This document shows, in pieces, positions 2,452 through 29,500 of a stretch of 32,330 nt of DNA. Source of the stretch: Candidatus Altarchaeum sp. (GTDB lineage: Archaea > Altiarchaeota > Altiarchaeia > Altiarchaeales > Altiarchaeaceae); NCBI GenBank assembly GCA_018260615.1, contig JAGWDQ010000094.1, forward strand, positions 1-32,330. The letters run 5' to 3'. The notes under the pieces are model-generated. The model did not search any database and had not been told where the DNA came from. It saw only the letters and a program-made list of their open reading frames with translations. Position 1 is the first letter of the stretch. The number at the start of each line of letters is the position of its first letter. The position numbers and the translations under genes were made by a program.

Positions 2452-2544
2452 ATGGACCAAAAAGTAAACATAAAGGGTTTGTTATTATTGGGATTTCTCG
2501 GAATTATAATAGGAATTTTAATAGGAATTCAGGATGTTTCTGCA
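2452..2544 (+). other. Signal peptide of the giant protein (aa 1-31)
   Basis: MDQKVNIKGLLLLGFLGIIIGILIGIQDVSA|YSG has a basic N-region, a long hydrophobic core and a V-S-A signal peptidase I motif. Confidence 0.85.
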
Positions 2545-5500: not shown

Positions 5501-8500
5501 TGGATTATTACAATTATCTGATATTTACAATGAAGGCAAATGATACGATATTTCCGGAAAATATGACAAATTGTGTAGAGGAAGGCAGCGTATTAACACT
5601 GAGAAGCGGTAATGGCGCGCCGATAAATTCAACGGCAAGATTCTGTATAAGTCCCCAACCCGGAAATGTTTCTCTAAACAAAACTATGAGCCAGCTAAAC
5701 TTTACTCCCAATGAAACGGCATGGATTAATGTAACAGCCAATGTTTCCCTTGATTTTGTCTCTCCGAGAGTGGAAATTGGTGATAAGCTCCCTTCATGGT
5801 TTGAATTTACAGGAGAAGCATATCTTTACGAATACAACATTTCTTCGAAAAATTATGATTTAATCTGTAACATTTCAGTTAATGGAAATAATTGCTCAAC
5901 ATCAATTTCGGATCCGGTAATAAGTAATGATTATGGAGAATTAAGAAAGATTGTATCCTGGACAATGTTTAATAAATCATCATATAATTACAGAATTCAA
6001 CTAAAGGTTAAGGCATTGGCACATGATTTCTTAAATAATGCTCCAAATATGTCCGAGGAAGATACCAGAACAAATATTGCATTTTCAAAAATTTATTATC
6101 CCGGCGGAGGATACAGATATGATGCGGCATCTTTAAGGGGTTTAATGATTATTCCGCCGGAATTAGGTGTTTATAAAACGATGATTCCGACAAAAAGCAC
6201 ACCATATTATACGAATGACACCATAACATTCGTAGCAACGATTTGCGAATTATCCAATACATCTTCATGGTATGATGTTGAGATTAATGATATTATGGGA
6301 CCGGGACTGGAATATAAAGATGTGGCAAAATGGACTTACTGGAATGGAAGTAGTTATGTTACCTCTGACATTTTCTTGTCAAATTCTTCTGTTACTTGTC
6401 CTCAGGGATTTCAAGAAAGTTCCGGAAATTGTACAAAACTAAATGCTTCTTATCTTTCAAATGAAAATTTAAGTGTGATTTATAAAGGAACATGTGCTTA
6501 TTTGACATTCAAGACAACAGTAAAGGAAGGGACATTACTTGGAAGTTCTTTAAAAAATGATGTGTATGTAAATGTTAGAATGGCGGATCATACGCCTATG
6601 AAGGGTAAGGCTACAACCTACCCTGTGACAGAGTATGAAAATTTAACAATAAATAAGGTAGCAAATACATCTGTTGCTGAACCCGGCGACTTTGTAAATT
6701 TCACAATAAGTATAACAAATAAAGGCAATAAAGATATAAAATATTTAAGAATAACTGACCTGCTTCCACTATATTTTGAATATCAAAGTGGTACCGCATC
6801 ATTTAATTATTACAAAAATGGTTCTGTAACTCCCAATATGACCTTTTCTTTAGATACGAACACTATATTTGGAAATGTTTGCGGGACAGGAATAAATGCT
6901 ATAAATGACAGCGGGCAATTACTTTACTGGAGCGTATGGGAACAAATCGGAGAAAATTTCTCTGCAAATGATACAGTTAAAGTTACATTTACAACAAAAG
7001 TAGTAACAACACCCTGTATGGTTAGTGGTCAGCAGAATGTTACAAACACGGGAAATGCTTATGGATATGTGTGGAACGACAGTAAAAACGATTACGATGG
7101 AATTTATGCGACAATAAGAGCTCCGTGGATTTTGGTTATTCCTCCTGCATACTGGTGTGATGTAAAGGTAGGAAATTTCTTTATTGATAATTCAACAAAC
7201 GAAGGGAATATTGAATATATACATATGAGCGGAGAAGTGAATGGAATTTCCGTTTACAATATAATCCATTACTTTAAATTTGCTCCGAATTATACTGTTA
7301 CTAATATAACAATAGAATACAGAAATCAAACAGGAAGATATTTCTATGCTATTCCGCTATATTGTGCGGATATTTTGGGGAATTCGTCAGTTGGAACAAA
7401 TGTTACACTTTCAAATCATACGGCAAATTATTCAAATCCAAATTGTAGTGCCCTGGCATTATACTCGCATTTAAAAGGAACAAGTATTTATACACATATA
7501 TTTGTAAATTTCACAGGAAATGCAACGGTTTGCAGTTCAAGTGAAGCGTGGGCAGGAGACGGATATATGATTGGATGTGCGGGAGGATGTTATAATCTAA
7601 CACAAAGAGTTCCTCCGTTTCCGGGAATAAATTTAACTAAACATGTCTATGCAAGTTGTGCAGAACCGGGAGATATTGTTAATTATTCCATAACTATGAA
7701 ATTAAATGAAACAACAACGGCAAGAAGTTTAAATATATTTGATGCCTTTTTCTTCGGTTCAAATTATGTTCCTGGTTCAACAAAGATAAATGTTACCTGT
7801 GGTAATGGAAACTCTACTATCTATACCGGTTCAAACTATGAACCCGTTATTACGGGTGCAGCAAACGATGTTATATGGTGGGATTTGAATACGCTTGATA
7901 ACGGTTGTCCTCAATGTAGCGGATGTCCTGATAATACAGAACCATGTGATTATGGTTGTGAGCCATGGAAGCCAAAAATAGGTGTTAACTTCTTCGGTCC
8001 AAATTCAACAATAAATGTCTCATTCCGGATGAAAATAAATTCATCTGTTTCATATCCCAATAGCGACAATAATGAAAACACGGTTCCGGTAACATTTGTT
8101 TATATAACTTCCAAGGGAGAAATTGCATTTTCAGCAACAGGTGCGTTTGAAAAACTACTCGTTTGTGTTCCAAATATAACAGCGAGCAAAATTTCTCCGT
8201 ATGGCGCAGAACCGGGCGATATTGTAAATTTCACGATTTATGTTAATGATACATCGGATTGCGAGTGTCAGCATGTTTATAACACAACAATTGTTGATAC
8301 CTTTACAACGATTCCAAAGACAAATAAGGAACCGTTTATTCCACAAAAGGCGTGGATAAATGGTGTTGAAGTAAGCAGTTGGAATTTAATATGGAATTGT
8401 ATAAGGGATAGCAACAACATTGTCCAAAATTGTACAATTAATTTCTCATATGACCTGAATGATGTTACTGCAAATGGAAATTTAAGTAAATTTAATCATA

Positions 8501-11500
8501 AACAAAATTTAACATTGATAATTCAGGCAAAGATTAATGCTCCTTTAATTACAAACATAACAAATAATGCAACCGTAACTGCTGTAATGGGAGACGGAAC
8601 GCCTTTAAATGCTTCAACAGAAACAAAAACAACGATAGTAGGAAAGAGCAATGTAAGTACCGTTAAAAGTGTAGTTACAGCAAGCGTTTACAGACCAAAG
8701 CAGGATTGCTATGTATTTGATACTTGTTTAACAAGCAATAATGTTGTTGAGCCGGGAGATATTGTTGTTTATAATGTAACAATTACAAACACAGGAACAG
8801 CAACTGCTTTTGATATTTCATTTACGGACTTATTGCCAATTGAATTTAAATATATTGATAATAGCAATGTAAGTGCGGCATTTGTAGGTAAAGAAATACA
8901 TGGTTTGCAGGAATTCCTTACATTTTATGTAGGATATGTGGATAATTCTTCACCAAAATCATTTACCTATAATGTTACTGTAATCTCCGGTGCAAATGAG
9001 GGAATGAACAATAACACCGTCATTGTATCTGGATATGACGGGCTTGGAAGGACAATTCCGAAAGAAGTGAAGCAGGCAAATGTCAGTGTTATAATTCCAA
9101 AAATCAGTGTCAGCAAGACAGCGAATGTTTCACAGGCACAACCGGGCGATTTAATTAAATTTACTTTAAACATTACAACAACCGGAAATGTTTATGATGT
9201 TAATGTTACCGATATATTGCCGGATAATTTTGAGTTAATTCTGCCAACACAGCCAAATTATGCAGGCAAGGATGGAAACATATTAAAGTTTAACATTCCG
9301 AACATAAACGGGCAATATTTAATAAATATAACTTTAAAGGCAACATCAAAGTCACAAACATCATCAAATGTATTCTTTGCGGAAGGAATTTACGGCGACA
9401 ATAAACCGGTAATTAGCGACGATGCAAATGTATGGCTCACAATTGTTAATCCGCAGTTAGATGTAGTTAAAGAAATAACAGGTGTTGTATTAAATGGCGA
9501 TATGCTGACAACAGCTTATAAACTAACCATAAAGAATGTAGGACATGGAACTGCTTATAATGTGTTATTTAAAGATACATTACAGCATGGAAATAATTAT
9601 GTTACCGGAACATTCAATGTTAACGGAACTCTACAAAATCCAAACCCTGCTAATAATATATTAACTTATTCCGTTGGAAATTTACAACAGGGGCAGGAAG
9701 TAAATATAACTTATAATTGTTCGGGAAATTTAAGTGATAGTTCTCCGAGCGGATTACAGGGCGGAATTAATCTTGTTACAGTAAATGCAAGCGATGGTTA
9801 TAAAGAAATTTCAGCGCAGGCAACCGCTTCAACCGGAGCATTGTCGGTTTCAAAAACAAAGAATAAGGATATTATTGAAGCAGGAGAAGGTATGACCTTT
9901 ACAGTAACTCTGAATGCTGTAACAGATTTAACAAATGTTGTTGTTAGTGATACATTGCCGTCTGACTGGAGTTATGTGACAAATAGTGCAACGTTGGATG
10001 GAAGTTCATCTGGTTTTACTGTTGTTTCAACTTCTCCATTAACAATAAATATTGGCACATTATCACAAGGCCCACATACATTAAAATATAATGCAACAGC
10101 GGGATGTAATGCATTAAAGCAGGATATGAATAAAGTTATTGTTAATTACACTTATAATAATGGAAATATTGAGTATAATTTTACTTCAAAGCCGGTTTCT
10201 GTAATTGTTAATGTAAAAGGAAAGCCAATTTTAGTTATTAATAAGCAAGTAAATGCAACTTATGCCGAGCCGGGAGATGTTATTCGGTATTCAATAAATA
10301 TAAGTAATTTAGGAGAGTCAAAGATATTAAATTTGAATATTTCTGATAAATTACCTGTTGGATTTAATTATATAGACGGAAGTTCAAAATTGGATGGAAG
10401 CAGCATAGGAGATCCAACACTAACAGGACAGGTATTAAATTGGACAAGTATTATTGGTGTGTTAAATCCCGGAGAAAGTAAGTTATTGACATTTAATGTA
10501 AATGTAACCTCAACAGCAGATGTATATTCATTAAATACTGTAAATGCTACCGGAATAAGCAATTGCCTGGAATTGGTTAAGGAAGCAGAAATTCAAATAG
10601 AAGTTAGAAAGCCGGAATTAGGTATTCAAAAATCAGTAGATCCAAAGTTTGCAACTATTGGAGATACAATTTATTATACTGTTTCAATCACAAACAACGG
10701 GAAAGGAAAGGCATACAATGTTATTGCAAATGATACACATCTGTCAGGTTTTAACTTTGTAAATTCAACATGTGCAAATGTTCTGGATTGTGATCCGACA
10801 GTAAGCGGAAATACATTGACATGGAATGTCGGAACACTTGAGCCGGGACAAACAGCAGTAATTTTATATTCTATGTATGTGAATTCAAGTGCAGCAGACG
10901 GAACAAATATAAATAATATTTTGCTTAGCTATGATGACAAATCAGGAACAACAAATACAAATTATGACAATGAAACAGTACATATAAATGTAGATTGTGT
11001 ATTAAATTTAACGAAGGAAGTTATAAGCATATCTCCATCCCCCGGAAGCAATAAGGCAGAAATAGGAAGCACAGTAACATATAAATGGACCGTAACAAAA
11101 ATAGGAGATTGCGACGACATACGTGATGTTGTGTTGACGGATAACATTCCAAATGGAGGGGATAATTTCGTCAATAAAACATGTGATGCAACGATAAACA
11201 ACAATGTAATAACATGGAATATTGGATACTTATCTGTACCTGATCCAGTAACCTGTGAGTATTCAATAAGAATAAATTCATCGGCAGATGTTGGCTTATT
11301 TACAAATACAGCAAATGTTAGGGGACAGACCGAACAAGGCGTTAATGTTTCAGATGTGGATAAAGCAGATATATGGATTGTAGGCCCGCCGGTTTTAGCG
11401 GTTGAAAAGCTCGCAAATGTAAGTGAAATCTATCCGGGAGAAAGTGTTTTATTTACAATAATAATAAGAAACAATGGAGAATCATCCCTCTATAATTTAA

Positions 11501-14500
11501 CAGTTGAAGACAGATTACCCGATGGCTTAAGTTTAGGAGGAAGTGCAAAATTAAATGGCGCTGCTTTAAGTGATCCAACGGGATGTCCGAATTGTGTATT
11601 TAATTTACAATCAGCGGGTGCATTAAAACAAAACGATGTATGGGAACTGACATTTAATGTTTCATCATCAACAACTGTTAGCGGAAATTTAACAAATCTT
11701 GCTATTGTAAATGGAACGAGAGCAGATGGAACAACAATAATGCAGGATAATGCAACAAAGACAATAGATGTTTTAACATCAGATATTACTATTGAAAAAT
11801 CTGCTGATAGGTCAAATGCCCAAACAGGAGACACAGTAACATATACAATTGCTGTAAGAAACACAAAAAATGCAGAAATTTCTCTTAACTTTACAGATAT
11901 ATTACCAACAGGATTTAACTATACAGATAACAGCTTACAAAACGCAATGTTTGTAAGTTACACGCATCCAACTCTTAAATTTAATGCAACAATTAAGGCA
12001 GGCCAAATCTTGTTTATCTCATACCAGGTAAAGATAAATTCATCGGCAAACGGAGCATCCACAAACACAATATATGTTGACGGAAAAGATAAAAATGGAA
12101 ATCCGATTCCGACAAAGAATGCGAGCGAAACAGTTAATGTAGGAGCATCTAATATTACCTTAAATAAAGACAGAAATCCGGGTGACGGAATGATAGAAAT
12201 AGGAAGTAAAGTTAATTATACAATAACTATAAACAATACCGGCTCGGTTCCGATATATACTTTAACAATAAAAGACAAGATTCCATCCGGTTTGTTAATT
12301 TTAGGAGTAATAAATTACAGTGATGATACACAGGTAAATAATTCGTTAACGGGAAGTTGTAATAATATAACTAATTATTGTGAATTCAATATTTCGGTTT
12401 TGAATGAAAACAAATATGTTAAATTTATCATAAAAACAAAGGTAATAAGTAACCAGTCAGATAATAACAATCAAATATCTGAAAATTTAGCGAATTTGAC
12501 ATATTACGACGGAGCAGGAAACAGGAGTGATACAAACAAGTCGGCAAATCTATTTACTGTCAAATATCCGGTTATTGAAATATCAAAGGTTTATGTTGAA
12601 GGAACAGACAAACAACCGGGGGACCTTGTGCATTATAATATTTCTATAATTAACAAGGGATTGGGCTTTGCAAATGTTACAATTAATGATACATTTGACA
12701 GCAGTTTGGAAATAATTAACTGGACAAACGGAAGCTGTAGTAGCGTACCATCAAATCCAGAGCAGGTTTCAAACTCATCTTCGGGAAATTTCTATCAATG
12801 GAATTTAACAAAATTACCCGGAAAACCAAATGCATTGACTCAGGATGTTTGCTGGAATATTTATATAACTGCAAAGGTTAAATCAGATGATTTCTATTAC
12901 AATAAAACAAGAATTGATAACAATACGGTGAATGTTTCATGGACAGATAACAACGGCACGACAAGAACAACAACCAATACTTCAGCAGGAATTGATATTC
13001 TGACTGCAAATGTGACAATAAACAAAACTTCAACGCCTGAAAGGGTAAATGTTTCGCCGGGAGATAATGTAATTTATATAATTGAGGTTAAAAATAGAGG
13101 AAACGGAACTGCTTATAACATACAAATTAACGATACATTGCCAGAAGGATTAAAAAATATAACTTGCAGTTATACTAAAAATGCTTCTGGAACACTAACA
13201 CCTTTACCCTGTTCATGCAATGGAAGAACCTGCCAGTTCAATATTTCAAAGATGGAAGCAAATACATACTGGAACATAACAATAAATACAACAGTTAATT
13301 CAAGTGCAACAGAAATAGCAGGAAACAATGCAACAATTTACTGGAAGGATAATGAAAGTTACAACAATACAACCACAACTGCAAATACATCATCATTAGG
13401 CGTTTTACATCCGAATGTTACAATAAGCAAGATTTCAAATCCTGAAAGTGGAAATGTTGAACCTGGAGCTTTTGTAAATTATACAATTATAATAACTAAT
13501 GTTGGGAATGGAACAGCATACCATATAAGCATTAATGATACAATCCCGGGTGGATTAAATATAATTTCATGGAGCAATACAACAAATGCATCCGCAACAG
13601 TTAATGGTTTATGTAATAATGATACTAACAGAAATCCATGTCAATTTAATATTTCGGTAATGCAAGCAAATACATACTGGAACATAACAATTACTACAAA
13701 GGTTTCTTCAAGTGCAACAGAAATAGCAGGGAACAATGCAACAATTTACTGGAAGGATAATGAAAGTTACAGCAATACAACCACATCAGATACAACATCT
13801 CCGTTAGGAGTTTTGAAAGGAAATGTAACAATACGCAAAACAAGGCAGGGAGTAGGTTGTGTTGAAGTAGGTGACACAATAACTTATATTATTAATGTAA
13901 GTAATTTAGGAAACGGAACCGCCTACAATGTAAATGTAAAAGATATATTGCCAGACGGAACAAAATTTGATACTTCTTCTTCCGCATATCCTGGTAATTG
14001 TAGTAATTACCTAAGCTGTAGCGAGTCACCATCAGAGTCAGGGAATATTTCATGTGATGTTCAAGGAGGAGGCGCACCTGTGGGGCAGTTAAATACAGGT
14101 TGTTGGGCAGGTGCACGGCTTAAAGTAAAGGTTCTTCCCACAGCAGGAAGTAACATTTCAAACAATACGGCATTCCTGAATTACACCGATAATTATACTT
14201 ATGTAAATGACACAGAAAATTCATCATGGAGCGAGATATGTGTAAACAAATCACATATTGTTCTTCATAAAGCACCGCCAGAACCTCCATCATCAGAACC
14301 CGGACACGAATTTAATTATACAATAACAGTAAAGAATGAAGGTACGGGAACTGCTTATAATGTAAACGTTAATGATACAATTCCGGATAATTGTTCTTTT
14401 GTTTCCCAGCAATCAACTGGAAATCCAACTTTCAGTTTAAGTTCAATCGGGGATAAAGCATATTGGGTATATAATAATATTTCTTCTCAAGATAATACTC

Positions 14501-17500
14501 GAACCATAACTTTAACAATAAAGTGTAATTCAAATGCATCAATTGTAAGAAATACTGCTTATGCAAACTATACGACAAAGGAATATAATGCGACAACGGG
14601 AGCAGGAATTTATAATACATCTTCAAATGAAACAACTGTAATTATAAATAAACCGAATATTACAGTAATAAAAAGCAAATCACTTCCATGGCCACATGAT
14701 CCGCTATGGGTAGGCGATACAATCACTTATGAAATAAATGTTAAGGAAAATGGAGGGGCGCACGCAAATGTTACGGTTAATGATATTATTCCGGATGGAT
14801 TGGTGCTTATAAGCTGTGATATTGCTGGAAGTTACACCAATTGTGATTCTAATGGAAATACATTAACCTGGAACATACGACTGAATCCTTCTCAGAGTAT
14901 TGCAATATATCCTCAATTCAGGGTAAATTCATCAATAAACGCAGATAAAAATAACGGATTCAATAACACAGTAACATGGTCATGGAAGGATGATAATAGC
15001 ACTGTTTATTATCCGTCAGGTAATTCATCAGTTACAAATGTTACTGTTTGCAGGCCAAATTTAACAATTTCAATTGTCTGTGATAAAAAATATGTGTATG
15101 ATGGCACATCAACAATCTGCACAGTCCATGTCAGCAATTCAGAAGATTGTCCTGCTTATAATACGATTGTAAATGTTCCTTTTGATTTGTCTTCCTTTAC
15201 ATGTGCTAATCCCACATCTCCGGGAAGTTGTGAAACAGGAAACGTAGTATGGTATTTGGGAGAGTTTGAGAGTAAGGGCTTTAAAGAATTAAATTTCACT
15301 TTAACATCATTTAATGATGTTTCAACGCAAACAACTCATAACATAACAGCTTATCTTAATTATAATGATAGTTCTAATTCGGACTATGCACGACATTATT
15401 CAAAGAATGATACATGGCAGCTGATACAGATTCAGAAACCAAATGTGTCAGCAGAGAAAGTAATAAATCCAAGATATCCACAGCCGGGAGACGATGTTGT
15501 TTATACAATCACAGTGAAAAATTTTGCATCATCGCTATATACAATACAAAACATTACCGATGTACTCCCGGTAAATTGGACAGAATGTATAAATTCTACT
15601 GTTTCACATTCAAATGCAACTACAAATGCAACACTTGCATCATGGAGTGTTTCCTGGGACACAGTAACAAGAACCTGTAGATTGAGCTTCAACAATTTGG
15701 TTCCGTTAAACCAAAACGAGAATATAATATGGACATTCCACACATCTCCAAATGCAAGTACGCTTGAAGGAACATATTATGAAGACCAGCCCGGATATTG
15801 CGGAAATACAACGGGGGATAGTATAAACTGTCATGATACACCCTCTGATGGAGCATTGCCAAACGGCGTGTATGTAATGTATCCGATGGCATCAGTTCAA
15901 AAGGATGGTCCTGCAAAAGCCTTTGTAAATGATATTGTAGAATATACATTGACAATAAGAGCCGACTATTTAACCTCTTACAGTTTAAATGTTAAAGATG
16001 AACTTCCGGTGGGCTTTATTTATCAGTCCCATACATGCAGATATAAAAACAACAATTCCGATTGCACAGTATTATTAAGTAATAACAACAACCTAATTAC
16101 CGGCTCTTTCTCAAAACTTGATACCGGAGATGCAATAGTAATAAAAATTTATGCATTGGTTACAGACGCTGCGGATCAGATTTCAAAAAATAATGTTTAT
16201 CTCAATTATTCAGATCATTCGGGAGCACATATTAAATACTCTCATGATTCAAAAACAACTGTTGTACCTTATGGGACATTTGTTACAAATATTATTAAAG
16301 AGTTCTCTCCACAGAGCAAGTTCTGCTTTAATGGACAGAATGCAACAATAATTTTAAGGGTTTCAACAACATCAAACGACCCAAGAGCAACGGCATACAA
16401 TATATCTGTATGGGATAACCTGGGGAATCTTGGCTATGCAGGTAACTGCAAGTATAAAGACAGCAGAGGAAATTCATGTAGTTGTAATCCAAGTGTAACC
16501 AGTGGCAGGGTAGAATTAAATTACACAAATAATGCCATTCTTTGTTCGGATATGATTAAACAGCAGAAAGCAGGAGAATGGTTTGAAATTTCTTATGATG
16601 TCAATGCCAGTGCGGAAGGTACTTATCCTGATATTGGTTATGTTAAATTTTATGATTACAATAATACTGCAAATATTTCCTCTTATCCCGCATCTATTTA
16701 TGCAAAGAATTGTTCAATAATGATAACAAAGACAAAAATTTCCCCTGAAAATATAACGCCCTGTGCGGATGTGATCTTTAATATTACAATTAAGAATCTG
16801 GCATCTGTAACCATGCGAAATGTTGAATTCGGAGATATTTATCCGTTAAACTGGCAAAATATAAGTTATGTTTGTGGAAGTGGAGGCGCATGTCAGGACA
16901 ACGGGGATCTTCTGAATGGAACGGCGACTGATTTATCTCCTGGCGAGCAATATTCATTTACATTAACTTTAAGACCGAATACCTCGGCAAATAATGTACT
17001 CGGAACAATAAACTTGGCAAGGGTTTTTGCAAGAAATTCAACTTCTTACAGCGACGAAACAAAGCTTCCTGTGGAAATTTTAGCACAAACCCCAAATGTT
17101 TATAAGGTCTTAAACTCAAGTAATAATTCAGGAATTGCCGACTACGGAAATAATGTAACCTTAACGATAAAGGTTCAGAATCCTTCGCAGGGAAATATGG
17201 TGATTAAAAGCATCACAGATATAATCCCTGAAAATTTCACATTTGTAACCTCGGATTATTCACAAAACTGCACATACAATAGTACAACACGAATTTTAAA
17301 TTGTACTCTAAATATTAATCTTCTGCCGGGAAGCATATTTAATTTCAGTTACATAATTTCTCCGACATCAAATGTTTCAGAGGGAATTTATCAGTTGAAT
17401 ATATGGGACAAGGCAAATGTAACAACAGCAGATGCATGTGGAAAAGAAACAACAACGCCTTCGGTATATTCGCCTGATATTTTAGAAATCAGAGCTCCGC

Positions 17501-20500
17501 ATCTCGTAATTTCAAAATCAGCAAATATTTCATCTCTTGAACCCGGAAATTATGTGAATTATACAATAACAATAGAAAATATACAAACAGGAAGCAAGGG
17601 AACTGCACACAATATAACAGTCAAGGACGAGATTCCCATACAATTTGAATTTATAAGCGCCTCGGCAGCAAAAGGAGGTAATTCGCTGGCAGTAAATCAC
17701 GATTGTTCATCCTCTAATAATTTATGCACATTTAATATTTCCGTTGCTCTTGCTCCGCAGGAAGTGGTAACTATGAGAATCAAAGTACTGGCAAAGTCCG
17801 TATTAACAGATACATCAACAGATAATTATGCAAATGTAACCGGAAAATACGGGGATAACTCTCAAATGAATACAACTAACACAACACCGCCCGCACATGT
17901 AACAATACTCGCATCCCCGATATTGACCATAACAAAACAAGAGCAGAGTTCAACAGCCGAACCAGGACAGCCCTTTTCTTATACAATAAAAGTTTCAAAC
18001 AATTACAACACAACAGCATATAATGTTACTGTTTATGATAATATTCCCGGAAACTGTACTTATATAAGTAATTCGTCTTCGCCATCAGCAGATCGTAGCT
18101 GGAATATAAGCAATACTTATTACTGGAACAAATCACAATTGTCTCCACACAATGACTGGACAATAACCTTGACAATTAAGTGTAATTCAAATGTTACAAC
18201 AGTAAATAATACGGTAAATGTAAGTTATAGTGATGGTTATCAATATATCAATAATCAGTCAAATTCAACGGGCACATATAATGATAAGGTAACAATTACA
18301 AAGCCAACAGTGACTGTAACAAAGACAAGAACAACGCCACCTGGAAATGTAAATATAGGAGGTACAATAACCTATACTTTAAATGTAAATCCAGGAGGAC
18401 ATGCAAATGTTACTCTAACTGATAAAGTTCCGAATGGGCTAATATATGATTCATGTACATCTGCATCAGGACAACCCACATGCAGCCACAATTCAACAAC
18501 AAATATAACAACATGGAATGTTTATTCCAACACATCTGTCTCATTTACAGTTACCTATAAAGTTACAACTTATGCATATCCGGAATTCAATAACACAGTT
18601 AATTACACATGGAAGGATGATACAGGTGGGGAATATGGTCCAAATTCAACAACCTCTATGCCAACAAATGTTTGCAGACCAAATTTAACTTTAACTATTA
18701 CATGCAGCAGGCCGGAAATTTATCAGGGATTAAACGAAATTTGCACAATTACAATAACAAATAATGCAAATTGTTCGGCATATAATGTCAGCGTTGTTTC
18801 GGATGTTCCGGTTAACTTCAAATGCGATCAGGCAGGAGGAGATGCTACCGGAATATGTAATGCAAACAATGCCACATGGTTTATAAGTCAGATTTCAGAA
18901 TATGGAACAAAAATTTTAAATTATACAATGACGGTTGAAAATGATACTAATGTAAATATAACTACACAGATCAATGCAAATGCAACTTACTGGGATCATT
19001 ATGATATAATTTATGGGCAAGATAATTATGTTGCACCCAATTCAACAACAGTAAAGCAATTGCCAAAGCCGAATATAGTTATCTATAAAGATATAAATCC
19101 GTTTATTGCACAGCCGGGAGAAAATGTTGTTTATTCAATAATTGTCAGAAATGACGGCAATTCAACAATTTCTTTGAATAACATAACTGATATGTTGCCT
19201 CCAAACTGGAACGGATGCAATACAACCGGAATTTACGACCAATACGGAGGATTCATTAACAGCGGCCAATATAATATCACTCAATCCGGGGATACATGTA
19301 TAGTAAATTTCACCAATCTAATTTCAGTTTCACCCGGAAAAAATGTTACATGGAAATTTAATTCCTCTGCAAAGCCAAGTGCAGACAAGGGCGCAAACAA
19401 CGATACTCCGTCTGCATGCTATGTTTTGGCAAATCAGACGGTATGTCCGGACGGGCTGGCAGGAAAAGTTGAGATTGTCTATCCGACAGCAAAAGTGATT
19501 AAACAATTTAGTACAACAACTGCAAAGACAGGAATGCAAGTTAATTTTACATTGACATTCTATGATATGATATATGATGTATATAATTTAACATTTAATG
19601 ACACACTTCCATACGGATTAAAATATGTCTCCTCTGCTTTTGAGGGGAATTGTAATGGCTGTACATTATCTGTTTCAACCGCTCCATGTATTGAGGATGC
19701 AGGTAAGACATGCGACTTTATAAATGGAAGTATCGGAAATATGACGCGGGGAAATAATGGCAAGCTAACAGTAACCGTAAATGTTACGGAGAATGTGAGT
19801 GCGGTAAACAGAAATACAGGTTATATATCGTGGCAGGACTATTCCGGAGGCATCGTACAAAATGATACTAACGATGATACTTTATATGTTCCTGTTATGC
19901 CCGCACAAACATTTATTGAAAAATCATTCTATCCGGAAAACAAGGTCTGTTTTAATGCAATGAATTTAACTGTAAAATTAAAGGTATTTACATTAGGAAC
20001 AGACCCGAGAGCAAAGAGTTATAATATTAAAATTACAGACACATTTGAAGGAATGAGTTATATTGATGGAACATGTATTCAAATTTATAGTAATGGCTCA
20101 AGCAGGGCATGTCCATCTGTTATGGATTATGGAAACGGAACAGTAGAATTCATCAATTTAGGAACTCAAAAGGTTGATGACTACTTTATAGTACAATTTA
20201 ATACTAAAATTTGGACCGAAGGGATGAAAAATGATACGGCAATAGTTGAATATTATAATGCATCTTCCGGAGGCGCGAAATTTACCGCAAGTACATCTCC
20301 TGCAAAAATAGGAATTTTGGCAAAGTCATGTAGTTTGGTAGCGGTTAAAAGTGATGAAAATGTATCTCCGTGTGAAGAGGTTACTTATACAATAACAATA
20401 ACAAATTACGCAGGGGAAAAGATGAGAGATATAACTATTATTGATACATATCCACCAGGGTGGAATTTCTCTCACAGTAGTAGTAGCAGCAGCGTGGATC

Positions 20501-23500
20501 CAAATTGTCAAAATACGGGGACTTATGCTGTTTGTCATCCACTTGATAATAATAATAATGAAATCGAATTAATGCCATCAGGATATCCGGGAGACAGCAT
20601 ATCATTTGATATTATTTTACTGCCAAATACAAGCGCTGGAGCATCGTCGGGACAGAATGTAGTTAAGGTTAGTACAATGGGAAGTACAACCAATAAGATT
20701 TATGAAGACGAGATGTCGGTTCCGGCAAATATTATTTTGTCCCAACCATCTGTCTATAAAGGAATATTTTCCGGTGATAAAGCAGATTATGGAGATAACA
20801 TAACGGTGGAAATCACAATAAATAATCCAAGTTCTGGAGATATAACAGTTGAAAAAATTACGGATATAATCCCGCAAAAGTACAATGTCCATCTTCCGGT
20901 AGGCAGCATGCTTAATTGTTCCTTTGATAATAGCAGTAGAGTAATGACCTGCAATGTTAGTATTGTCATTACAAAAGGAGGAAGTGCTAAATTTTATTAC
21001 AATATTACTCCTACATCAGCATTAAACTGCCCGATGGATGGATGCGAATTAAATATTGCCAATTTGACACCTACAATAACAAGTAGAGATAATTGCGGAA
21101 AGGACTACACAACACAAGGATTTTCATCAGGGGTTGTAAAGGTTTATCCGCCGATATTAACAGCAACAAAAACAGCAAGTACCTCACCGGTGCAACCGGG
21201 ACAAACATTCAATTACACTATAACAATAAAGAATGAGCAAACAAATGCAAAAGGAACTGCTTATAATGTAACCGTAAATGACGAAATTCCATCACAGTTA
21301 GGATATATAACTGCTGTATCAAGTAAAGGAACATTAAGTATAAGCAATGTAAGCAATAATTACACATTTACAACAGATGCTTCTCTCGGCCCAGGAGACA
21401 CTATGACAATAACAATTACTGTCAAAGCAAAATCATACCCTTCAAATACAACAGTAACAAACAAAGCAACAATTTATGCAAAATACGGCGACAACAGCAA
21501 CATTTCACCAGTGACAACAAATGAAGTAAATGTAACTATATTATCAAAGCCGGTATTAGATATTACAAAAACACGCTGGAATACATCATCAGAACCGGGA
21601 CATGAATTTAGTTATACTATTACCGTAACAAATACATACCAGGCAACAGCACATAATTTAATTGTAAATGATACAATTCCGGATAACTGCGAATATGTTA
21701 GTTCAAGTCCATCATATTCAGGTGTAACTGGAAAGACATATTCGTGGTTTAAGTTAGAATTAGGAATGGGCGACAATTGGCAAATAACCTTAACAATTAA
21801 ATGTAATTCATCTGCTTATAGTGTTCTAAATACCGCAAGTTTGAATTATGTTGATGGTTCGGGAAGTCCGGGAACAAATTCAAATACATCGGATGCAGTT
21901 GAAATTAAACATCCTCATGTTTCAGTAAACAAAACATTACAAACACCAGGAACAATTAGTGTAGGAAACGTTATACAATATCAAATAACAGTTAAAGAAA
22001 CAGGAGGAGCGCACGCAAATGTTACCGTAAGAGATGCAATTCCACAAGGATTAAAGTTTAATAATTGCAGTGGCGGTGACAATTGTTACAATACAACTAA
22101 TGAAGTGATATGGACATTACGACTAAATCCATCAGACACCAAGTATTTAACAGTGAACTATAAGGTTACAACCAATGCATCCGTCTTTAACAATACAGTA
22201 AATGCAACCTGGATAGATGATGCAAATGGACCGTATGGAACGGATGGGTCAACCAATGCTACATCAGAAACAGCAAGTGTTTGCAAACCAAATGTTACAA
22301 TCAGAATTGAATGTGAAAAACCGTATGTTTATAAAGATGTTCAGGAGGTCTGCCACATTTTTGTTGAAAACCATGCAAATTGCACCGCTTATAATACAAC
22401 AGTTAATGTTCCAATCCCAACGAACTTTGAATGTCAGGTAGCAACAGGAGGAAATTGTATTGCAAATAATGCCACATGGAATGTAGGAACACTTACAGGA
22501 GGACAACTAAAAGTATTAAATTTAACAATGAATGTTGTAAATGATACTAATGTAAATATAACCCATAACATTACAGCATATCTTGAATACAGAGATTATC
22601 CGTTGCCCGATGCAGAAAACCTTGGAAAATACTATTATGGAAATGACACAACAACCGTAATACAATTACCAAAACCGGATATAAGTATAATCAAGAGCGT
22701 AAATCCATATTACAGTGAAAGAGGACAGGAAGTTACTTATACAATAAACATGACAAACAATGGAAATTCAACGATACAAGTGCTAAACATTACGGACGAA
22801 CTTCCAGAGAATTGGAGTTATTGTTATGATTCAGGCATTTCAGCACCCTTATACGGAAATGTTGCACATGAATTATTAAATACATCAAGAAATTGCATTG
22901 CTGTTATCAATCAAACGACAAATGTAATTACTATTAATCCGGGAGAATCATTAATATGGACATTCAAATCGGTTCCTTTGAATAATGCAGCAGGAAGTAA
23001 AGATGGAATAGCACATACAGATACTCCCTCGGCATTTATAAATACCTCGGGAAATGTTCAGGAAGTTCAGGGTTTAGTAGGAAGGGCAGTTGTAAAGTAT
23101 CCCGATATGCAGATACAAAAGAATGGAAAGGAAATAGGAGCGGTTAATGATGTCTTTAATTACACCATAATTGTAACAAATAAAGATATGCCTGCTTATA
23201 ATGTGGTAGTTGAGGATACACTTCCCGGTGGATTTGGTTATCTGAATACTTATCTTGATGCGTGTTTAAATTGTTCATTGATATCAGCAACAAACGGAAT
23301 AATCAAGGTTGATGCAGGAAATTTCACTTCAAACCAGGTAAAGAAAATTTATGTGGAAGTCAATATTACAAATAATTCGGCCGACCATAATATTAACCAG
23401 GCAAATGTTACCTACAAGGATTATTCAGGAACAGTTGAAGATACACAAAACGATACCTTTGATACACGGGTTCCTGTAGGTCCGTTTATTGTAAAGATAA

Positions 23501-26500
23501 CAAAAACTTTAGATCCGCAAAACAAAATATGTTATAATGTTCAAAATATGTCAGTAACATTAAGAGTAGAAGTCATAAGTCAGGATCCAAGAGCAAAAGC
23601 ATACAATATAAATGTAACTGATGAGATTACTGCTCAATTTACAGATTATGTTTCCGGCTCAGGAATTATATGTGATCCAAACTGTCATACATTAGAACCA
23701 AATAAGACCAATAATGCAACTGGATTTGTATTAAACTGGAACACAAATAAGGAGTTAAGGACAGATAACTATTTTGAACTGAAATTTACTTTGAATTCAA
23801 GCAATGAAGAAACAGTTAGAGATACGGCATTCGTTGAATTTGTAAATGCAAGTGTTAATGGAACCTACTTTAAAGAAAATTCAACAGAAAAATCATACCT
23901 TACAAAGAATTGCACACTCGCAGTAACAAAAACAGGAAAGGACAGAGTAAAACCATGTGAAAATGCAACATTCAATATAACGATTTACAATGAAGGAAGT
24001 GAAGTTATGAGGGATGTGTACTTTAGAGATACATTCCCGTCTAAATGGACTTATGTGAGTTCAAGTGACGCATCAGATTCAAGAATAACATGCAATACAT
24101 CAACAATTTCATCAGGATATGTTGATTGTGAATTAGATCAGTTAGTGCCTGGTGAAAGTCATTCATGGGCAATCATACTAAAACCAGATACTACACAAGG
24201 AGTTGATACAGGAATAGAGCAGACAAATGTTTTGGGCGTAGATGCAATTGGAGTTACTTCAAATAATACTTATCATGATGGTACAAAGAAAACAGTAATA
24301 GTTGATAAGACAGAAGCAGGATTATATAAAGAAATTTTAGACACGCAAGCGGATTATGGAGATAATATCAGAGTAAGGATAACAGTAAGTAATAAAGGAA
24401 ATTCAACAATAACATTAACAAAGATTATTGATACAATTCCTGCAAATTTCAACATTTCACTGCCATCGGGTTCAAGTTGCAGTCTTTCTTCACAGGACAT
24501 ATCTACCTTAAGGACATTAACCTGCACTTATGATGTTAAAATTAATGCGTCCGGAACAACAGGAGATAGTTATGAGTTTATCTATAACATTATTCCAACC
24601 TCAAATTTAAGTATATTGACGGATAAAGAAACATATTACTTAAACGCAGCAACAGTAACGACAAAAGACGAATGTAATAACGAAACAACCGACTTAACAA
24701 CAACACCCGCACAGTCAATAACTGTTTATCCGCCGATATTAAAAGCAAGCAAGAGTGCAAATAAGATACAGCTTGAGCTGGGAGAAACATTAACTTATAC
24801 TATAACGATAAAGAACGAACAGACAAATGCAAAAGGAACTGCTTATAATGTAATTGTTTCAGATAATATTCCCTCAAACTTTGAGTATATTAATGCCACA
24901 TTGGATGGAAATCCAATACCAAATTTAAGTTCAAATCCATACACATTTAATGTCGGTAAATTTACTCCCTCAACAACAAGGTCTCTTGTAATAACCGTAA
25001 GAGCAATTTCTTCCGGAGATACAATAAATTTTGCAACTATTAACGGAACTTATGGAGATAACAGCAGTATTTCATCAAAGGACTCAAACAATGTTTCTGT
25101 TAAGGTTTTAGGAGCGCCGCAAATGTCTGTTAGTAAGGAACAGAATGTGACAAGCAGTGTAGAACCAGGGGAATTAATTAAATACACAATAACAGTTAAT
25201 AATTTACAAAATGTTACATCTTATAATGTTAATATAACCGATCAAATTCCGCAATATACTGACTTTAACCGCACTAACGATACTGCTTGTACATATAATT
25301 CATCAACAGGAATAGTTAATTGTACAAAGGCACAAATGCTGGGCTTGGAGATATGGAATATTGAAATTGTGGTTAAAGTTACAAGTAATGCTACATCAGT
25401 AACAAATACCGCAAATTTAACATGGATGGATGGGTTAAATAATAATTTCAGTACTACAAATACAACGACGCCAATTAATGTTAAACATCCGAATGTAACA
25501 ATAAGTAAAGAAATTAAGACGCCTGTAAAAAGTTTCTACGCACCAGGAGATGCAATTATTTATCAGGTAAATATTAAAAATATAGGGGACGGAACTGCAT
25601 ACAATGTAAATGTTACAGATACAATTCCATCAGGATTAATTTACAACACCTCATCTGGACTTACAGCTGTTCAACCAACGATAAGCTATACTTCAACAGA
25701 AATTACTTTGTTCTTTGACAAAATTGGAGTGGGACAAACAGGAGATACTTTAATTTACTTTATTGTTAACACAACCGCAACTGATACATCTTTGAACAAT
25801 ACCGTAAATGTAACATATAAAGATGGTTACGGAAAAGAATTTAATGCGAGCAATTCAACATCAAATGCAAATCAAACAACAATTTGTCATCCAAATGTTT
25901 CAATAAGCATAAATGCAAATCCATCAACGACATTCTATCAAGGACCGGAAATTTTATTCACGATAAATGTTGATCTGTTAACACTATGTTCAGCACACGA
26001 TGTTGAAATTTGCGTAACATTGCCTGATGAAGTTAACTTTATTGCAGGTTCTGCGAGTCCGCAGCAATCAAGCATATCCCCGTTATGTTTCAGTTTAGGC
26101 GATATTTCAGGAGATGCAGCAATAACATTTAACGGAAAAGCAAAGAATGTATCAGCAATAACAATAAGAAATGTCACAATTAACGGAACATTCAATGATG
26201 GAATTAATACACCATTTAACACAAGTGATAATCGCACAGAAGTAACAATATTGCCTCCACCAGATGTTTATGTTGAAAAATCATGGACGCCAAACAGAAA
26301 TTCACCTGATTTCTTTGAACCGGGAGAAACAGTAAATATAACTTTAACAGTAAAGAACAATGGAGATAATGCAATAAATGTGACAACATTAACAGACAAC
26401 CACACACAATATTTGGAAATTTTAAGGACAATTTCTGTAACGGGACCATCAGGAGCAATTAGTTACACAGAAGTTTCAAATACATCAACGAACTACACAA

Positions 26501-29500
26501 TCAGCATTACCCCAACAGTTCTGAATAAAGGACAACAAATTGTTTGGGTTATTGAGGCAAAGATAAAGAAAGAAGCAGTTAATGATTTAGCAAATGCTGG
26601 AACAGATGCAGGAATTGCTTGTTATGTGCCTTTAGTTGAAAATGCAAACCAAACATGCACAATTCCAATTCCAGCGACAATTCCAACACAAGAGCCGGCA
26701 TTTAAGGTAGAGAAGCGCGACGTAACAGGAGGATCAGGAAAATCACCATACAATATAGGAGAAAATGTTACTTATGAAATCAGTGTTTATGCGATAAATC
26801 CGTCAACAAATTCAAGACCTGTTTTAAATGTATTTATCAATGATACTTTGCCAGAGGGCTTTACTTATGTGAGTAATTCGGCAATATGTAATAATACACA
26901 ATGCATTCCGACAATAGACGGAAGTAATCTCATATTTGGACCATTTAACATAACTAACGATGCAAGCAATAAATTTGTAATTAAATTTAATGCAACGATT
27001 GGAAAGAATGCATCAACTCCATCAAAGAATTTGGCAACAGGTAAAGGGGAGGATTATGCAGGAAATGAAGTTAATAACACTGCGCCGGACGGAGAAGCAT
27101 CGGTAAATGTATTAGTTCCACAGCCAGTTATGAATATAGAAAAAGATGTTCCACCGAAGTCATATATAGATACCAATGTTACAGTTATATTGAAAGTAAC
27201 AAACGGAGGCGGAACAAGTGAGGCAACCGCTTACAATGTTTCAGTAAAGGATATTCTTCCATCTGAAATTAATTATGTCGCTGGAACATCACAAATAACA
27301 TTGCCGAATGGAACAATTATAAGTCAGGACCCGGTAATTGGTGGAAATATATTAACATGGCAATACTTTACAATTCCATCAGCAGCGTCAGGAAACAATT
27401 CATTAACAATAGAATTTAAAGTCACTTCAAGTACAACAGGAACATTCACAAATGTTGCTAATGTAACTGCTTTGGATGTTACTGATAAGTTATGTTCCGC
27501 ATGTAATAAGAGCGATACTAAAGAAATGTTCTTTGGAATGTCAAATCTGACAGTTATACCTACAAATAACATTGCTACAACACCTTGTAAAGATGCAGAA
27601 ACAAATATAACAATAACAAATAAAGGAAACAATTTAACAAATGTAAATCTAACTATTGAAGTTCCAACTGGTTGGAGCATAGTTAATTTAACAGGGGATA
27701 ATGCATCTAAGATATCTGGTAATATGTGGACACTTTCAGATCTTCCGACAAATTCAAGCATCACATTGACATTGACTGTGAAAGCAAATTCCTCAACAGC
27801 ACTTGATTCCGAAAATATAAATGTAAGAGTTGATGGCTTTGATGTTATAAAGAACGGCACGGTTACAGAGACCACTATAATTAAGGCAAACTATATAAAA
27901 CCAAGTCCACAATTGAACAAGGTGATGCCGCAGGCAGCATCGGAAGTTGAACCAGGAGATATAATACAAATATGTATGGTTATAACAAATCCACAATCAG
28001 GAAGCGCACCATTTATGGTAACGAATATCAGCGATAAGATTCCGGATGGATTTGAATTGGTTGTTGGAAGTAGTACAGGTTGTACCTTCTACGATAACGA
28101 TACTGGAGGATATGCAGAATGTACTCCGAATGTGCACCTTAACAAAGGTCAAAACTGGCAGGCGTGTTACAGCATAAAGGCAACATCAAATGTTCCAAAT
28201 CCGATAATTTATAAGGTCGCAAATGTAACATTTGAGGATGATTGTGGAAATGGACAAGCAAGCTCAGCACCAATAAACGACAATCAAGGTCCGTACGACG
28301 GAACATTCTACAAACCATCATTATCAGCAACAAAGTCAATTTCGCCATCAAAACAAACATTTATCGCAGGAGCAGACACAATAACTTACAATATAACAAT
28401 AACAAATGCAAATCAACCGAAAGGAACCGCACATAATGTTACAATAACAGATACAATTCCAGAATATCTGAACTGCTCAACATCTCCTGCAACAATTGAC
28501 AACAAGGCATCCGGCTTAAATAACGCAACATACACATGGAAATTTGATAACATAAGTCCAAATGATGCAGAGACAATAACCTTAACTTGCCAGATTTTAC
28601 CGCCTGCAAACGGAACAGCAAATTTCACGAATGTTGCGTTCGTTAATTACACAGATGGTTATGGAACTCCACAGGATCCGAAGAATGGAACTGCATCACA
28701 AATCACTATTTACGGTGTTTCCACTTTACAAATCACAAAAGTAGAGTTCAATGTAACACAATCAATGGAACCAGGAGATGTTTATATTTACACTTTAAGA
28801 GCAACAAATACAGGTACGGCGCCAGCGTATAATTTAATTATAAACGATACATTGGACACCTGTGTAGAAATACAAGGCATAACAAATTCAACAAACGAAA
28901 CAACTGCTGTTATGAATGGAGGTTGCATAAACAATGTCTGTCAGTGGGATTTAAGTAAATTATCAGAAGGTAATTACTGGGAAGTAAACATTACAGTTAA
29001 GATAACCTCAAACTGTACGACAATTCCAATAAACACAGCAAATCTTAAATATGCAGCAGCAAATGGCACAGAATACTCAACAAATAGAAGTACTCAGCAG
29101 CCAATCATAGTTCATCATCCAAATGTAACAATAAGTAAAGAAATTAAGACACCTGTAAAAAGTTTCTACGCACCAGGAGATGCAATTATTTATCAGGTAA
29201 ATATTAAAAATATAGGGGACGGAACTGCATACAATGTAAATGTTACAGATACAATTCCATCAGGATTAATTTACAACACCTCATCTGGACTTACAGCTGT
29301 TCAACCAACGATAAGCTATACTTCAACAGAAATTACTTTGTTCTTTGACAAAATTGGAGTGGGACAAACAGGAGATACTTTAATTTACTTTATTGTTAAC
29401 ACAACCGCAACTGATACATCTTTGAACAATACCGTAAATGTAACATATAAAGATGGTTACGGAAAAGAATTTAATGCGAGCAATTCAACATCAAATGCAA

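What the first reader, a model, noticed from the sequence alone, without database searches (positions are those of the whole stretch)
15049..27870. Putative isopeptide triad (Lys/Asp/Asn) lost as a set in every type-4 domain
Most domains keep a Lys in the first strand (PNVTISK), an Asp in YNVxVxDxxP and an Asn in the last strands (NTAxxxY). This is the pattern of CnaA-like intramolecular Lys-Asn isopeptide bonds catalysed by Asp. In all four independent type-4 domains (~15049, ~18673, ~22282, ~25885) all three positions become non-reactive together: K to I (PNLTISI, PNLTLTI, PNVTIRI, PNVSISI), D to V/S (YNTIVNVP, YNVSVVS, YNTTVNVP, HDVEICV) and N to I/V (HNITAYL, QINANATY, HNITAYL, NVTINGTF). 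These domains carry extra Cys pairs. The type-8 domain of unit IV (~27541) shows the same triple loss, while type 8 in units I-III keeps all three residues. This co-variation supports a real covalent triad. It also suggests a deliberately unlocked domain every ninth position, which could act as a periodic hinge or shock absorber in an otherwise covalently locked rod.
Basis: partly seen in the sequence, partly recalled or inferred. Interest (0 to 1): 0.85.

Follow-up and report, generated by a model that had tools for sequence, protein, structure and literature searches.

The report
Isopeptide-free domains in giant archaeal adhesin
A giant archaeal surface protein is built from about 66 self-crosslinking "CLIPPER" (DUF11) domains, and one domain type in each nine-domain repeat has swapped the three crosslinking residues for greasy ones; the pattern is real, but the chemistry is already published and the regular spacing comes from copying the repeat, so a purposeful "shock absorber" is not shown.

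Summary
The observation largely holds. The window is one ORF (2452..32328, 9959 aa) with 66 DUF11 domains, 58 of them unique. Their conserved Lys, Asp and Asn align with Lys715/Asp748/Asn806 of PDB 9IFR, the solved isopeptide-bonded CLIPPER domain (Costa et al. 2025). That paper already reports triad-less DUF11 domains.

- **Co-loss of Lys and Asp:** they are lost together in every type-4 domain (I/V/I, I/S/I, I/V/I, I/V/V), in type 8 of unit IV and in the first domain. The other 52 unique domains keep both.
- **"As a set" is only partly true:** type 9 of unit IV changed Asn only (to Lys). Types 5, 7 and 9-I carry Asp there. Asn in type 8-IV is ambiguous.
- **Not four independent losses:** the type-4 domains are paralogues, and two of the five copies are identical and abut a scaffold gap. 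A homologue in another archaeal family keeps K/D/N in its type-4-like domain, so the loss is derived (one or two events) and spread by unit duplication.
- **Type 4 is a maintained domain:** pLDDT 92.6, Z 13.7 to 9IFR, three co-varying Cys pairs.

The hinge or shock-absorber reading is untested. This is a new member of a known kind, of modest interest.

The parts
2452..32328 (+). Giant ORF (9959 aa inside the window). It has a signal-peptide-like N-terminus, a head of about 640 aa with no Pfam match, and then 66 DUF11/CLIPPER domains. It continues beyond the window.
   Evidence: Continuation after a 100-N gap for at least 2405 aa.
13402..13779 (+). Example of a canonical locked domain (aa 3651-3776), with Lys in VTISK, Asp in INDTIP and Asn in GNNATIYW.
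   Evidence: Profile A1 aligns these columns with Lys, Asp and Asn of 9IFR.
15040..15426 (+). Type-4 domain of unit I (aa 4197-4325). The triad columns hold I4208 (15073-15075), V4242 (15175-15177) and I4298 (15343-15345). Cys at domain positions 4, 14, 27, 37, 55 and 64.
   Evidence: AF2 pLDDT 92.6, and Z 13.7 with rmsd 2.1 A over 115 residues to 9IFR.
18664..19056 (+). Type-4 domain of unit II (aa 5405-5535): I5416, S5450 (an Asp follows at +1), I5507. Six Cys.
22273..22662 (+). Type-4 domain of unit III (aa 6608-6737): I6619, V6653, I6707. Six Cys.
25876..26247 (+). Type-4 domain of unit IV (aa 7809-7932): I7820, V7855, V7908. Four Cys: the 14/27 and 55/64 pairs are missing and a new 46/71 pair is present.
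   Evidence: It is 35-36% identical to the triad-bearing G052 domain.
29506..29877 (+). Fifth type-4 copy (aa 9019-9142), identical to the unit IV copy.
27535..27885 (+). Type-8 domain of unit IV (aa 8362-8478). Lys is replaced by P8370 and Asp by I8402. The Asn column is ambiguous (I8456 or N8457). An identical copy lies at 31165-31515.
   Evidence: Type 8 of units I-III keeps K, D and N.
27886..28302 (+). Type-9 domain of unit IV (aa 8479-8617). Lys and Asp are kept, but the Asn column is K8588 (28213-28215). This is a change of the third residue alone.
4387..4731 (+). First, degenerate DUF11-like domain (aa ~646-760), which lacks Lys (YIVIDSD), Asp (IIIHEIPP) and an aligned Asn.
25522..32330 (+). 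Exact 3179-nt direct repeat (25522-28700 = 29152-32330, offset 3630) that runs up to a scaffold gap. The unit copy number is therefore uncertain.

Best explanation
The window encodes most of a secreted surface-fibre protein of more than 12,000 aa from an archaeon (Altiarchaeum according to earlier scan notes; I did not check this).

Its stalk is a chain of CLIPPER (DUF11) Ig-like domains. In most of them a buried Lys on the first strand is expected to form an autocatalytic isopeptide bond with an Asn (sometimes Asp) on the penultimate strand, helped by an Asp at the end of the third strand. This is the arrangement solved in PDB 9IFR.

One domain type of the nine-domain super-repeat (type 4) has replaced all three buried polar residues with beta-branched hydrophobic ones (Ile, Val/Ser, Ile/Val). 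It still folds as a CLIPPER domain and is as conserved between units as its neighbours.

The loss is derived. A homologue in another family of the same class has the same type 3-4-5 order, and its type-4-like domain keeps Lys, Asp, Asn and the Cys4-Cys37 pair. The loss happened once or twice and was then copied when the nine-domain unit was duplicated. That copying is why it recurs every ninth domain.

Inferred, not shown:
- Type 4 lacks the first-to-penultimate-strand covalent clamp. It would therefore be the least heat-, protease- and force-resistant element of each unit.
- Up to three disulfides may buffer this, but they would trap only short loops.
- Nothing shows that this weakness is selected for.
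For: **The triad is the CLIPPER isopeptide triad.**
- Pfam DUF11 matches 47 stretches, and TIGR04226 also matches.
- The profile hit to 9IFR has E=4.5e-11, with the K, D and N columns on the bonded residues.
- The crystal structure and the K715A destabilisation are in PMC12617251.

**Co-loss of Lys and Asp.** Six of 58 unique domains lack both, and none lacks only one.

**Hydrophobic replacements.**

**Type 4 is folded and maintained.**
- pLDDT is 91-94 within the three-domain model and 92.6 when folded alone.
- VIA Z is 13.7 with rmsd 2.1 A over 115 residues to 9IFR.
- Identity between units is 42-50% for units I-III, as high as for types 2 and 3.

**The loss is a derived state.**
- The three domains of the G052:C201 fragment score best against the type 3, 4 and 5 profiles (58.5, 62.7 and 47.9 bits).
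- Its type-4-like domain has TISK, ITDILP and NNISGTF.

**Paralogy.** The type clades are recovered in the tree.

**Family context.**
- Among 1999 domains of 150 other giant DUF11 proteins, Lys loss and acid loss are strongly linked (odds ratio 118), but single losses are common.
- Fifty of the 151 proteins surveyed (the 150 others plus the window's own) hold at least one Lys-and-acid-less domain, in runs or alternations.
Against: - No coordinates were available, so I could not measure the contact between the three positions or the Cys-Cys distances.
- Isopeptide formation in this protein is inferred by homology only.
- The single-domain tree places each G052 domain with its unit IV counterpart (86/89 for type 4). 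That would mean two separate losses at the same repeat position, a hint of selection or predisposition. However, the AU test does not reject one clade (p=0.21), and the concatenated, outgroup-rooted tree weakly favours a single origin (73/76).
- There is only one outgroup fragment, 362 aa long.
- Disulfides may not persist in an anoxic, sulfidic habitat.
Confidence: 0.6

Rival explanations
1. One reading: type 4 is kept free of the isopeptide bond by selection. It acts as a periodic extensible element (a hinge, sacrificial domain or shock absorber) in an otherwise covalently locked rod.
For: - Type 4 is well conserved and confidently folded, so it is not decaying.
- All three positions became hydrophobic rather than random.
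- The single-domain trees allow two separate losses at the same repeat position.
- Isopeptide bonds between the first and last strands make pilins inextensible, and CnaA domains have been described as dissipaters of mechanical shock (PMC8382745 and its reference to Echelman 2016).
- Loss of the bond lowers the CLIPPER melting point from about 80 to about 45 degrees C.
Against: - The periodicity is explained by unit duplication alone.
- Regaining three residues is improbable, so persistence says little about selection.
- The AU test and the concatenated tree do not support repeated loss.
- Unit IV also has incomplete triads in types 8 and 9, so the spacing is not regular.
- The stretches before and after the super-repeat do not follow the pattern.
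- Many other DUF11 giants are fully locked, or largely unlocked.
Confidence: 0.2
2. Crosslink swap: type 4 is not unlocked. Disulfide bonds took over the stabilising role of the isopeptide bond, so the rod stays covalently braced throughout.
For: - Type 4 has 6/6/6/4 Cys in pairs that co-vary. Positions 4/37 are in all copies. Positions 14/27 and 55/64 are in units I-III only. A 46/71 pair is in unit IV only.
- Cys14 lies two residues after the former Lys position.
- The Cys total is even in every unit: 34, 32, 24 and 18.
- Disulfides co-occur with isopeptide bonds in about 30% of CLIPPER domains.
Against: - The universal 4/37 pair predates the loss. It is present with an intact triad in G052.
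- No Cys pair joins the first strand to the penultimate strand, so none reproduces the N-to-C force clamp.
- The pairs would trap only about 33, 13 and 9 residues.
- Unit IV lacks two of the three pairs.
- Canonical domains also carry Cys pairs.
- Pairing could not be checked without coordinates.
- A reducing habitat argues against stable disulfides (inference).
Confidence: 0.15
3. The conserved K/D/N residues are only a structural motif here, and no isopeptide bonds form in this archaeal protein. In that case their absence from type 4 has no mechanical meaning.
For: There is no direct chemical evidence for this protein, and I could not test the triad geometry.
Against: - The homology to the solved, bonded 9IFR triad is strong.
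- Lys and Asp are invariant in 52 of 58 unique domains that are otherwise about 20-35% identical.
- The losses are linked both here and across 1999 other domains.
Confidence: 0.05

Closest known systems
CLIPPER (DUF11, PF01345) intramolecular isopeptide domain; PDB 9IFR from Acinetobacter silvestris adhesin B9T28_05395 (Costa et al. 2025, PMC12617251)
   Same: - Same Pfam family and the same predicted fold (Z 13.7).
- Lys, Asp and Asn fall in homologous columns.
- Tandem stalk of a giant surface protein.
- Disulfides occur alongside the isopeptide triad.
- The paper already notes archaeal members and members without the triad.
   Different: - Here one paralogous domain type has a clean, all-hydrophobic replacement of the triad, repeated once per nine-domain unit.
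- The host is an archaeon and the protein is far larger (more than 12,000 aa).
- Several domains carry Asp at the Asn position.
RrgB D2-type pilin domains (NCBIfam TIGR04226) and other CnaA-like pilin domains (BcpA, SpaD, EbpB)
   Same: Lys-Asn bond with a catalytic Asp in a CnaA-like sandwich. Five stretches of the first half of the protein match TIGR04226, and pilin domains appear among the fold matches.
   Different: - There is no sortase-type polymerisation. This is one polypeptide carrying dozens of domains.
- The second half of the protein, which includes the super-repeat, does not reach the TIGR04226 model.
Mechanically clamped Gram-positive pilins (Spy0128) and the shock-dissipating CnaA domain of SpaA-type pilins (cited in PMC8382745)
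   Different: In those pilins extensibility was measured. Here it is inferred from missing residues only.
Integrin alpha calf/thigh domains and TRAP-beta (fold matches without isopeptide bonds)
   Same: They tie with 9IFR as the best structural matches to the type-4 model (Z 13-14). This shows that the fold is stable without an isopeptide bond.
   Different: There is no detectable sequence relationship, and these are eukaryotic proteins.
Titin-like super-repeats of Ig/Fn3 domains
   Same: Position-specific domain types are conserved across duplicated multi-domain units.
   Different: Different domain family. The analogy concerns architecture only.

Membership tests
CLIPPER / DUF11 (PF01345) | Match to the family HMM above the curated cut-off | tested here: met
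   19 + 28 stretches, 489 and 733 bits against a cut-off of 24.6. One search finds the same domains in the genome. The type-4 domains also score above the cut-off (18685-18978 at 42.1 bits; 22345-22578 at 37.2 bits).
CLIPPER / DUF11 (PF01345) | CnaA-like (E-set) beta-sandwich fold like 9IFR | tested here: met
   AF2 model of type 4-I: pLDDT 92.6, nine strands. VIA-align gives Z 13.7 and rmsd 2.1 A over 115 of 123 residues to 9IFR, tied with the top matches.
Isopeptide-forming subset of CLIPPER | Lys (strand 1), Asp/Glu (end of strand 3) and Asn/Asp (penultimate strand) at the columns of 9IFR Lys715/Asp748/Asn806 | tested here: met
   For canonical domains: Lys and Asp are invariant and Asn is at least 90% conserved in alignment A1, and the three columns align with the 9IFR residues. 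52 of 58 unique domains keep Lys and Asp.
Isopeptide-forming subset of CLIPPER | The same triad in the type-4 domains and in type 8 of unit IV | tested here: not met
   Type 4 has I/V/I, I/S/I, I/V/I and I/V/V. Type 8-IV has P/I/(I or N). These are family members by fold and HMM but cannot form the bond.
Isopeptide-forming subset of CLIPPER | Triad side chains within bonding distance in three dimensions | not testable with these tools
   Structure prediction returns no coordinates. Only strand assignment could be checked: positions 12, 46 and 102 lie in strands 8-14, 39-47 and 99-109.
Isopeptide-forming subset of CLIPPER | The covalent bond actually forms (-17 Da, protease and heat resistance) | not testable with these tools
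   Needs mass spectrometry or biophysics. This has been shown only for the 9IFR domain.
RrgB_K2N_iso_D2 (TIGR04226) | Match to the NCBIfam model above its cut-off | tested here: met
   198.6 bits (cut-off 30), five stretches, all in aa 1-5000. There is no hit in aa 5001-9959.
Fibrillar adhesin architecture | Signal peptide, N-terminal adhesive head, repeat stalk and C-terminal anchor | tested here: inconclusive
   A hydrophobic N-terminus and the stalk are visible. The head has no Pfam match. The C-terminus is not assembled, because the contig ends inside the gene.

The most novel reading that the evidence does not exclude
Position 4 of the nine-domain super-repeat is a selected mechanical fuse. 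The isopeptide triad was lost twice independently at this one position: once in the ancestor of units I-III and once in unit IV after its split from the G052 homologue. The pre-existing Cys4-Cys37 staple permitted the loss. The result is a periodically extensible element in a giant archaeal tether that works in flowing groundwater.
Probability: 0.15. Interest if true: 0.55.

Novelty: new member of a known kind. Interest (0 to 1): 0.3.

Why it matters
This protein is a natural within-molecule comparison. It holds dozens of homologous CLIPPER domains with the isopeptide triad and a conserved paralogue without it. A relative in another family still carries the triad in the matching domain.

That makes it a convenient system for asking three things:
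- what the bond contributes to stability and mechanics;
- how a buried reactive triad is replaced by a hydrophobic core;
- whether Asp can stand in for Asn in a CnaA-like fold.

It does not change what is known about the chemistry, which was published in 2025. The proposed shock-absorber role remains a hypothesis.

Tried and rejected
- **Measuring K-D-N and Cys-Cys distances.** This was not possible. The structure tool returns no coordinates, and nothing is written to /data.
- **Fold search with the three-domain model.** It returned only generic multi-Ig hits such as integrin legs and antigen I/II, so it was uninformative.
- **Looking for diverged type-4 orthologues.**
  - The 1.84-billion-protein profile search found only P0031, a 98.8% identical fragment of the same protein.
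  - The genome-contig scan found none.
  - One metagenome contigs attempt failed for lack of conserved columns, and the scan that ran found none.
  - A word-based search with the G052 domain found no close relative.
  - Sixty genomes of the same class gave one hit, G052:C201.
- **Counting loss events.**
  - The 41-domain tree pairs the G052 domains with unit IV.
  - The AU test does not reject a clade of all four type-4 domains (p=0.21).
  - A concatenated type 3+4+5 tree with paralogue outgroups weakly favours the opposite topology (73/76).
  - I therefore leave the count at one or two events.
- **Automatic HMM column calls.** They were wrong by 1-2 residues for several domains (for example aa 1721, 2083, 2854, 5955, 7150). 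I corrected these by hand from per-type alignments.
- **Pfam on the head (aa 1-660) and on the upstream ORF 534-1898.** No family matched.
- **Rejected idea: the type-4 Cys pairs arose to compensate for the lost bond.** The 4/37 pair is older than the loss.


Full report
**What is there.** The window holds one very long ORF on the + strand (2452..32328, 9959 aa, open at its 3' end). After a hydrophobic N-terminus and a head of about 640 aa with no Pfam match, a self-search finds 66 tandem domains of about 120-135 aa. Pfam calls them DUF11 (PF01345; 47 stretches). NCBIfam calls them the DUF11-type repeat (TIGR01451). Five stretches in the first half also match TIGR04226, the isopeptide-forming RrgB D2 model. 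From about aa 3787 the domains form a nine-domain super-repeat with a period of about 1203-1210 aa. In a tree the domain types group by position, not by unit.

The window does not end at the contig end. A 100-N scaffold gap follows at contig 32331-32430. After it the frame stays open for at least another 2405 aa, with at least 15 more DUF11 domains, to the contig end. The protein therefore exceeds 12,000 aa. An exact 3179-nt repeat (25522-28700 = 29152-32330) abuts the gap, so the number of units is uncertain. Earlier scan notes assign the genome to Altiarchaeum. I did not verify this. A 98.8% identical fragment lies in NCBI assembly GCA_002841095.1.

**Checking the observation.** In an alignment of 30 canonical domains, Lys and Asp are invariant and Asn is at least 90% conserved, although the domains are only about 20-35% identical.

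I combined an HMM alignment with per-type alignments, because the automatic calls slip by 1-2 residues in several domains. The curated result is as follows.
- 52 of 58 unique domains keep both Lys and Asp.
- Six lack both: the four distinct type-4 domains, type 8 of unit IV, and the first, degenerate domain.
- No domain lacks only one of the two.

The type-4 residues at the three columns are:

| Domain | Lys column | Asp column | Asn column |
|---|---|---|---|
| t4-I | I4208 | V4242 | I4298 |
| t4-II | I5416 | S5450 | I5507 |
| t4-III | I6619 | V6653 | I6707 |
| t4-IV | I7820 | V7855 | V7908 |

The naive chance of this overlap is 2.5e-8. Counted as three events it is 3e-5.

The third residue is looser.
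- Type 9 of unit IV keeps Lys and Asp but has Lys at the Asn column.
- Type 7 (units I-III), type 9-I and probably type 5 have Asp there.
- In type 8-IV the column is Ile or Asn, depending on a one-residue gap.

So "lost as a set" is strictly true for Lys and Asp and only mostly true for Asn. Unit IV (and its copy) has three incomplete triads out of nine, not one.

**What the triad is.** A profile of the window's canonical domains finds PDB 9IFR at E=4.5e-11. The three conserved columns fall on the Lys of KPTVDVVK, the Asp of LNDTL and the Asn of VNKV. 9IFR is the crystal structure of a DUF11 domain, renamed CLIPPER. It has a Lys715-Asn806 isopeptide bond next to Asp748. The K715A variant melts at about 45 instead of about 80 degrees C and is protease-sensitive (Costa et al. 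2025, PMC12617251).

The same paper classifies DUF11 as CnaA-like. It reports archaeal members, notes co-occurring disulfides in about 30% of CLIPPER domains, and states that some DUF11 domains lack the triad.

**What type 4 is.**
- Type 4 is not a decaying domain. Its identity between units (42-50% among units I-III) equals that of the neighbouring types.
- AlphaFold gives it the highest confidence of the three domains in a type 3-4-5 model (91-94) and 92.6 when folded alone.
- The model superposes on 9IFR with Z 13.7 and rmsd 2.1 A over 115 residues. This ties with integrin calf domains and TRAP-beta, which have this fold without any isopeptide bond.
- The three replaced positions lie in the first, third and penultimate strands.
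- Type 4 carries Cys pairs that come and go together: positions 4/37 in all copies, 14/27 and 55/64 in units I-III only, and 46/71 in unit IV only.
- I could not obtain coordinates, so I tested neither the triad geometry nor the disulfide pairing.

**History of the loss.** The type-4 profile finds nothing similar among 1.84 billion representative proteins except a fragment of the same protein. Among 60 genomes of the same class, one 1090-nt contig (G052:C201) encodes three domains that score best against the type 3, 4 and 5 profiles, in that order. Its type-4-like domain is 35-36% identical to type 4 of unit IV. It has Cys4 and Cys37 and keeps Lys (TISK), Asp (ITDILP) and Asn (NNISGTF). The triad-less state is therefore derived, and the 4/37 Cys pair is older than the loss.

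How many times the triad was lost is open.
- Single-domain trees pair each G052 domain with its unit IV counterpart (89/54, 86/89, 96/84). That implies two losses.
- The AU test does not reject a single type-4 clade (p=0.21).
- A concatenated, outgroup-rooted tree weakly supports one origin (73/76).

Either way the four domains are not independent observations. The nine-domain spacing is what duplication of a unit with one triad-less domain must produce.

**Family context.** In 150 other giant DUF11 proteins I called 1999 domains.

| State | Domains |
|---|---|
| Full triad (Asp or Glu as the acid) | 1824 |
| Lys and acid both lost | 43 |
| Lys only lost | 53 |
| Acid only lost | 13 |
| Asn only lost | 66 |

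Lys loss and acid loss are strongly linked (odds ratio 118), but the domains are phylogenetically non-independent and alignment errors remain. Fifty of the 151 proteins surveyed (these 150 plus the window's own) contain at least one domain without Lys and acid. Some are fully locked. Some have long triad-less runs. Some alternate. A mixture of locked and unlocked CLIPPER domains is therefore common.

**Mechanism and verdict.** Most likely (about 0.6), type 4 is a folded CLIPPER variant whose buried triad was replaced by a hydrophobic core once or twice and then copied with the unit.

By analogy with K715A and with pilin mechanics, it should be the least heat-, protease- and force-resistant domain of each unit. 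Its disulfides, if they form, would trap only short loops and do not bridge the first and penultimate strands.

Selection for a periodic hinge or shock absorber (about 0.2) is possible but unsupported. A full swap of disulfide for isopeptide bracing (about 0.15) is weakened by the age of the 4/37 pair and by unit IV lacking the other pairs.

This is a new member of a known kind. Its interest is modest, mainly as a natural test system.

Noticed in passing
L014 (contig C94 31000-39648); gap at contig 32331-32430: The window ends at a 100-N scaffold gap, not at the gene end. The same peptide (YTDGYGTPQDPKNGTAS) flanks both sides of the gap. The frame then stays open for at least 2405 aa, with at least 15 further DUF11 domains of other types and no type-4-like domain, up to the contig end. 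One of those domains also lacks the Asp (TTITIALPP).
   Followed up: partly
L009 (G052:C201:1-1090): A fragment from another family of the same class carries type 3-, 4- and 5-like domains in the same order. Its type-4-like domain has an intact K/D/N triad and the Cys4/Cys37 pair. It is the only outgroup I found.
   Followed up: yes
window aa 4613-4743, 5815-5942, 7012-7138 (type 7), aa 4882-5002 (type 9-I), and type 5 domains (aa 4327, 5537, 6739, 7934): Asp replaces Asn at the acceptor column while Lys and the catalytic Asp are kept. These may be Lys-Asp isopeptide bonds in a CnaA-like fold. The solved CLIPPER bond is Lys-Asn.
   Followed up: partly
window 28213-28215 (aa K8588, type 9 of unit IV; copy at aa 9798): The Asn column is Lys while the strand-1 Lys and the Asp are retained. 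The domain probably cannot crosslink, although only one residue changed.
   Followed up: partly
window 4387-4731 (aa ~646-760): The first DUF11-like domain has Asp or Ile at the Lys column, His at the Asp column and no aligned Asn. It may be a transition domain between the head and the stalk.
   Followed up: no
proteins P0052, P0008, P0003, P0004: Other giant DUF11 proteins show striking patterns. P0052 has 31 consecutive domains with Lys and Asn but no acid at the aligned column. P0008 and P0003 have long triad-less runs. P0004 alternates strictly between locked and Lys-less domains. In addition, 216 domains use Glu instead of Asp.
   Followed up: no
L013 (GCA_002841095.1, PHDX01000013.1): A 98.8% identical copy of aa 4288-5967 exists in a public assembly. 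There the gene call stops at 5050 and a new one starts at 5171. This suggests a frameshift or stop that is absent from this window.
   Followed up: no
whole ORF: Cys totals are even in every super-repeat unit (34, 32, 24, 18). Cys pairs vanish together between units, for example DNC...KCN of type 2, which is lost in unit IV. This fits structural pairing, even though the habitat is probably anoxic.
   Followed up: partly
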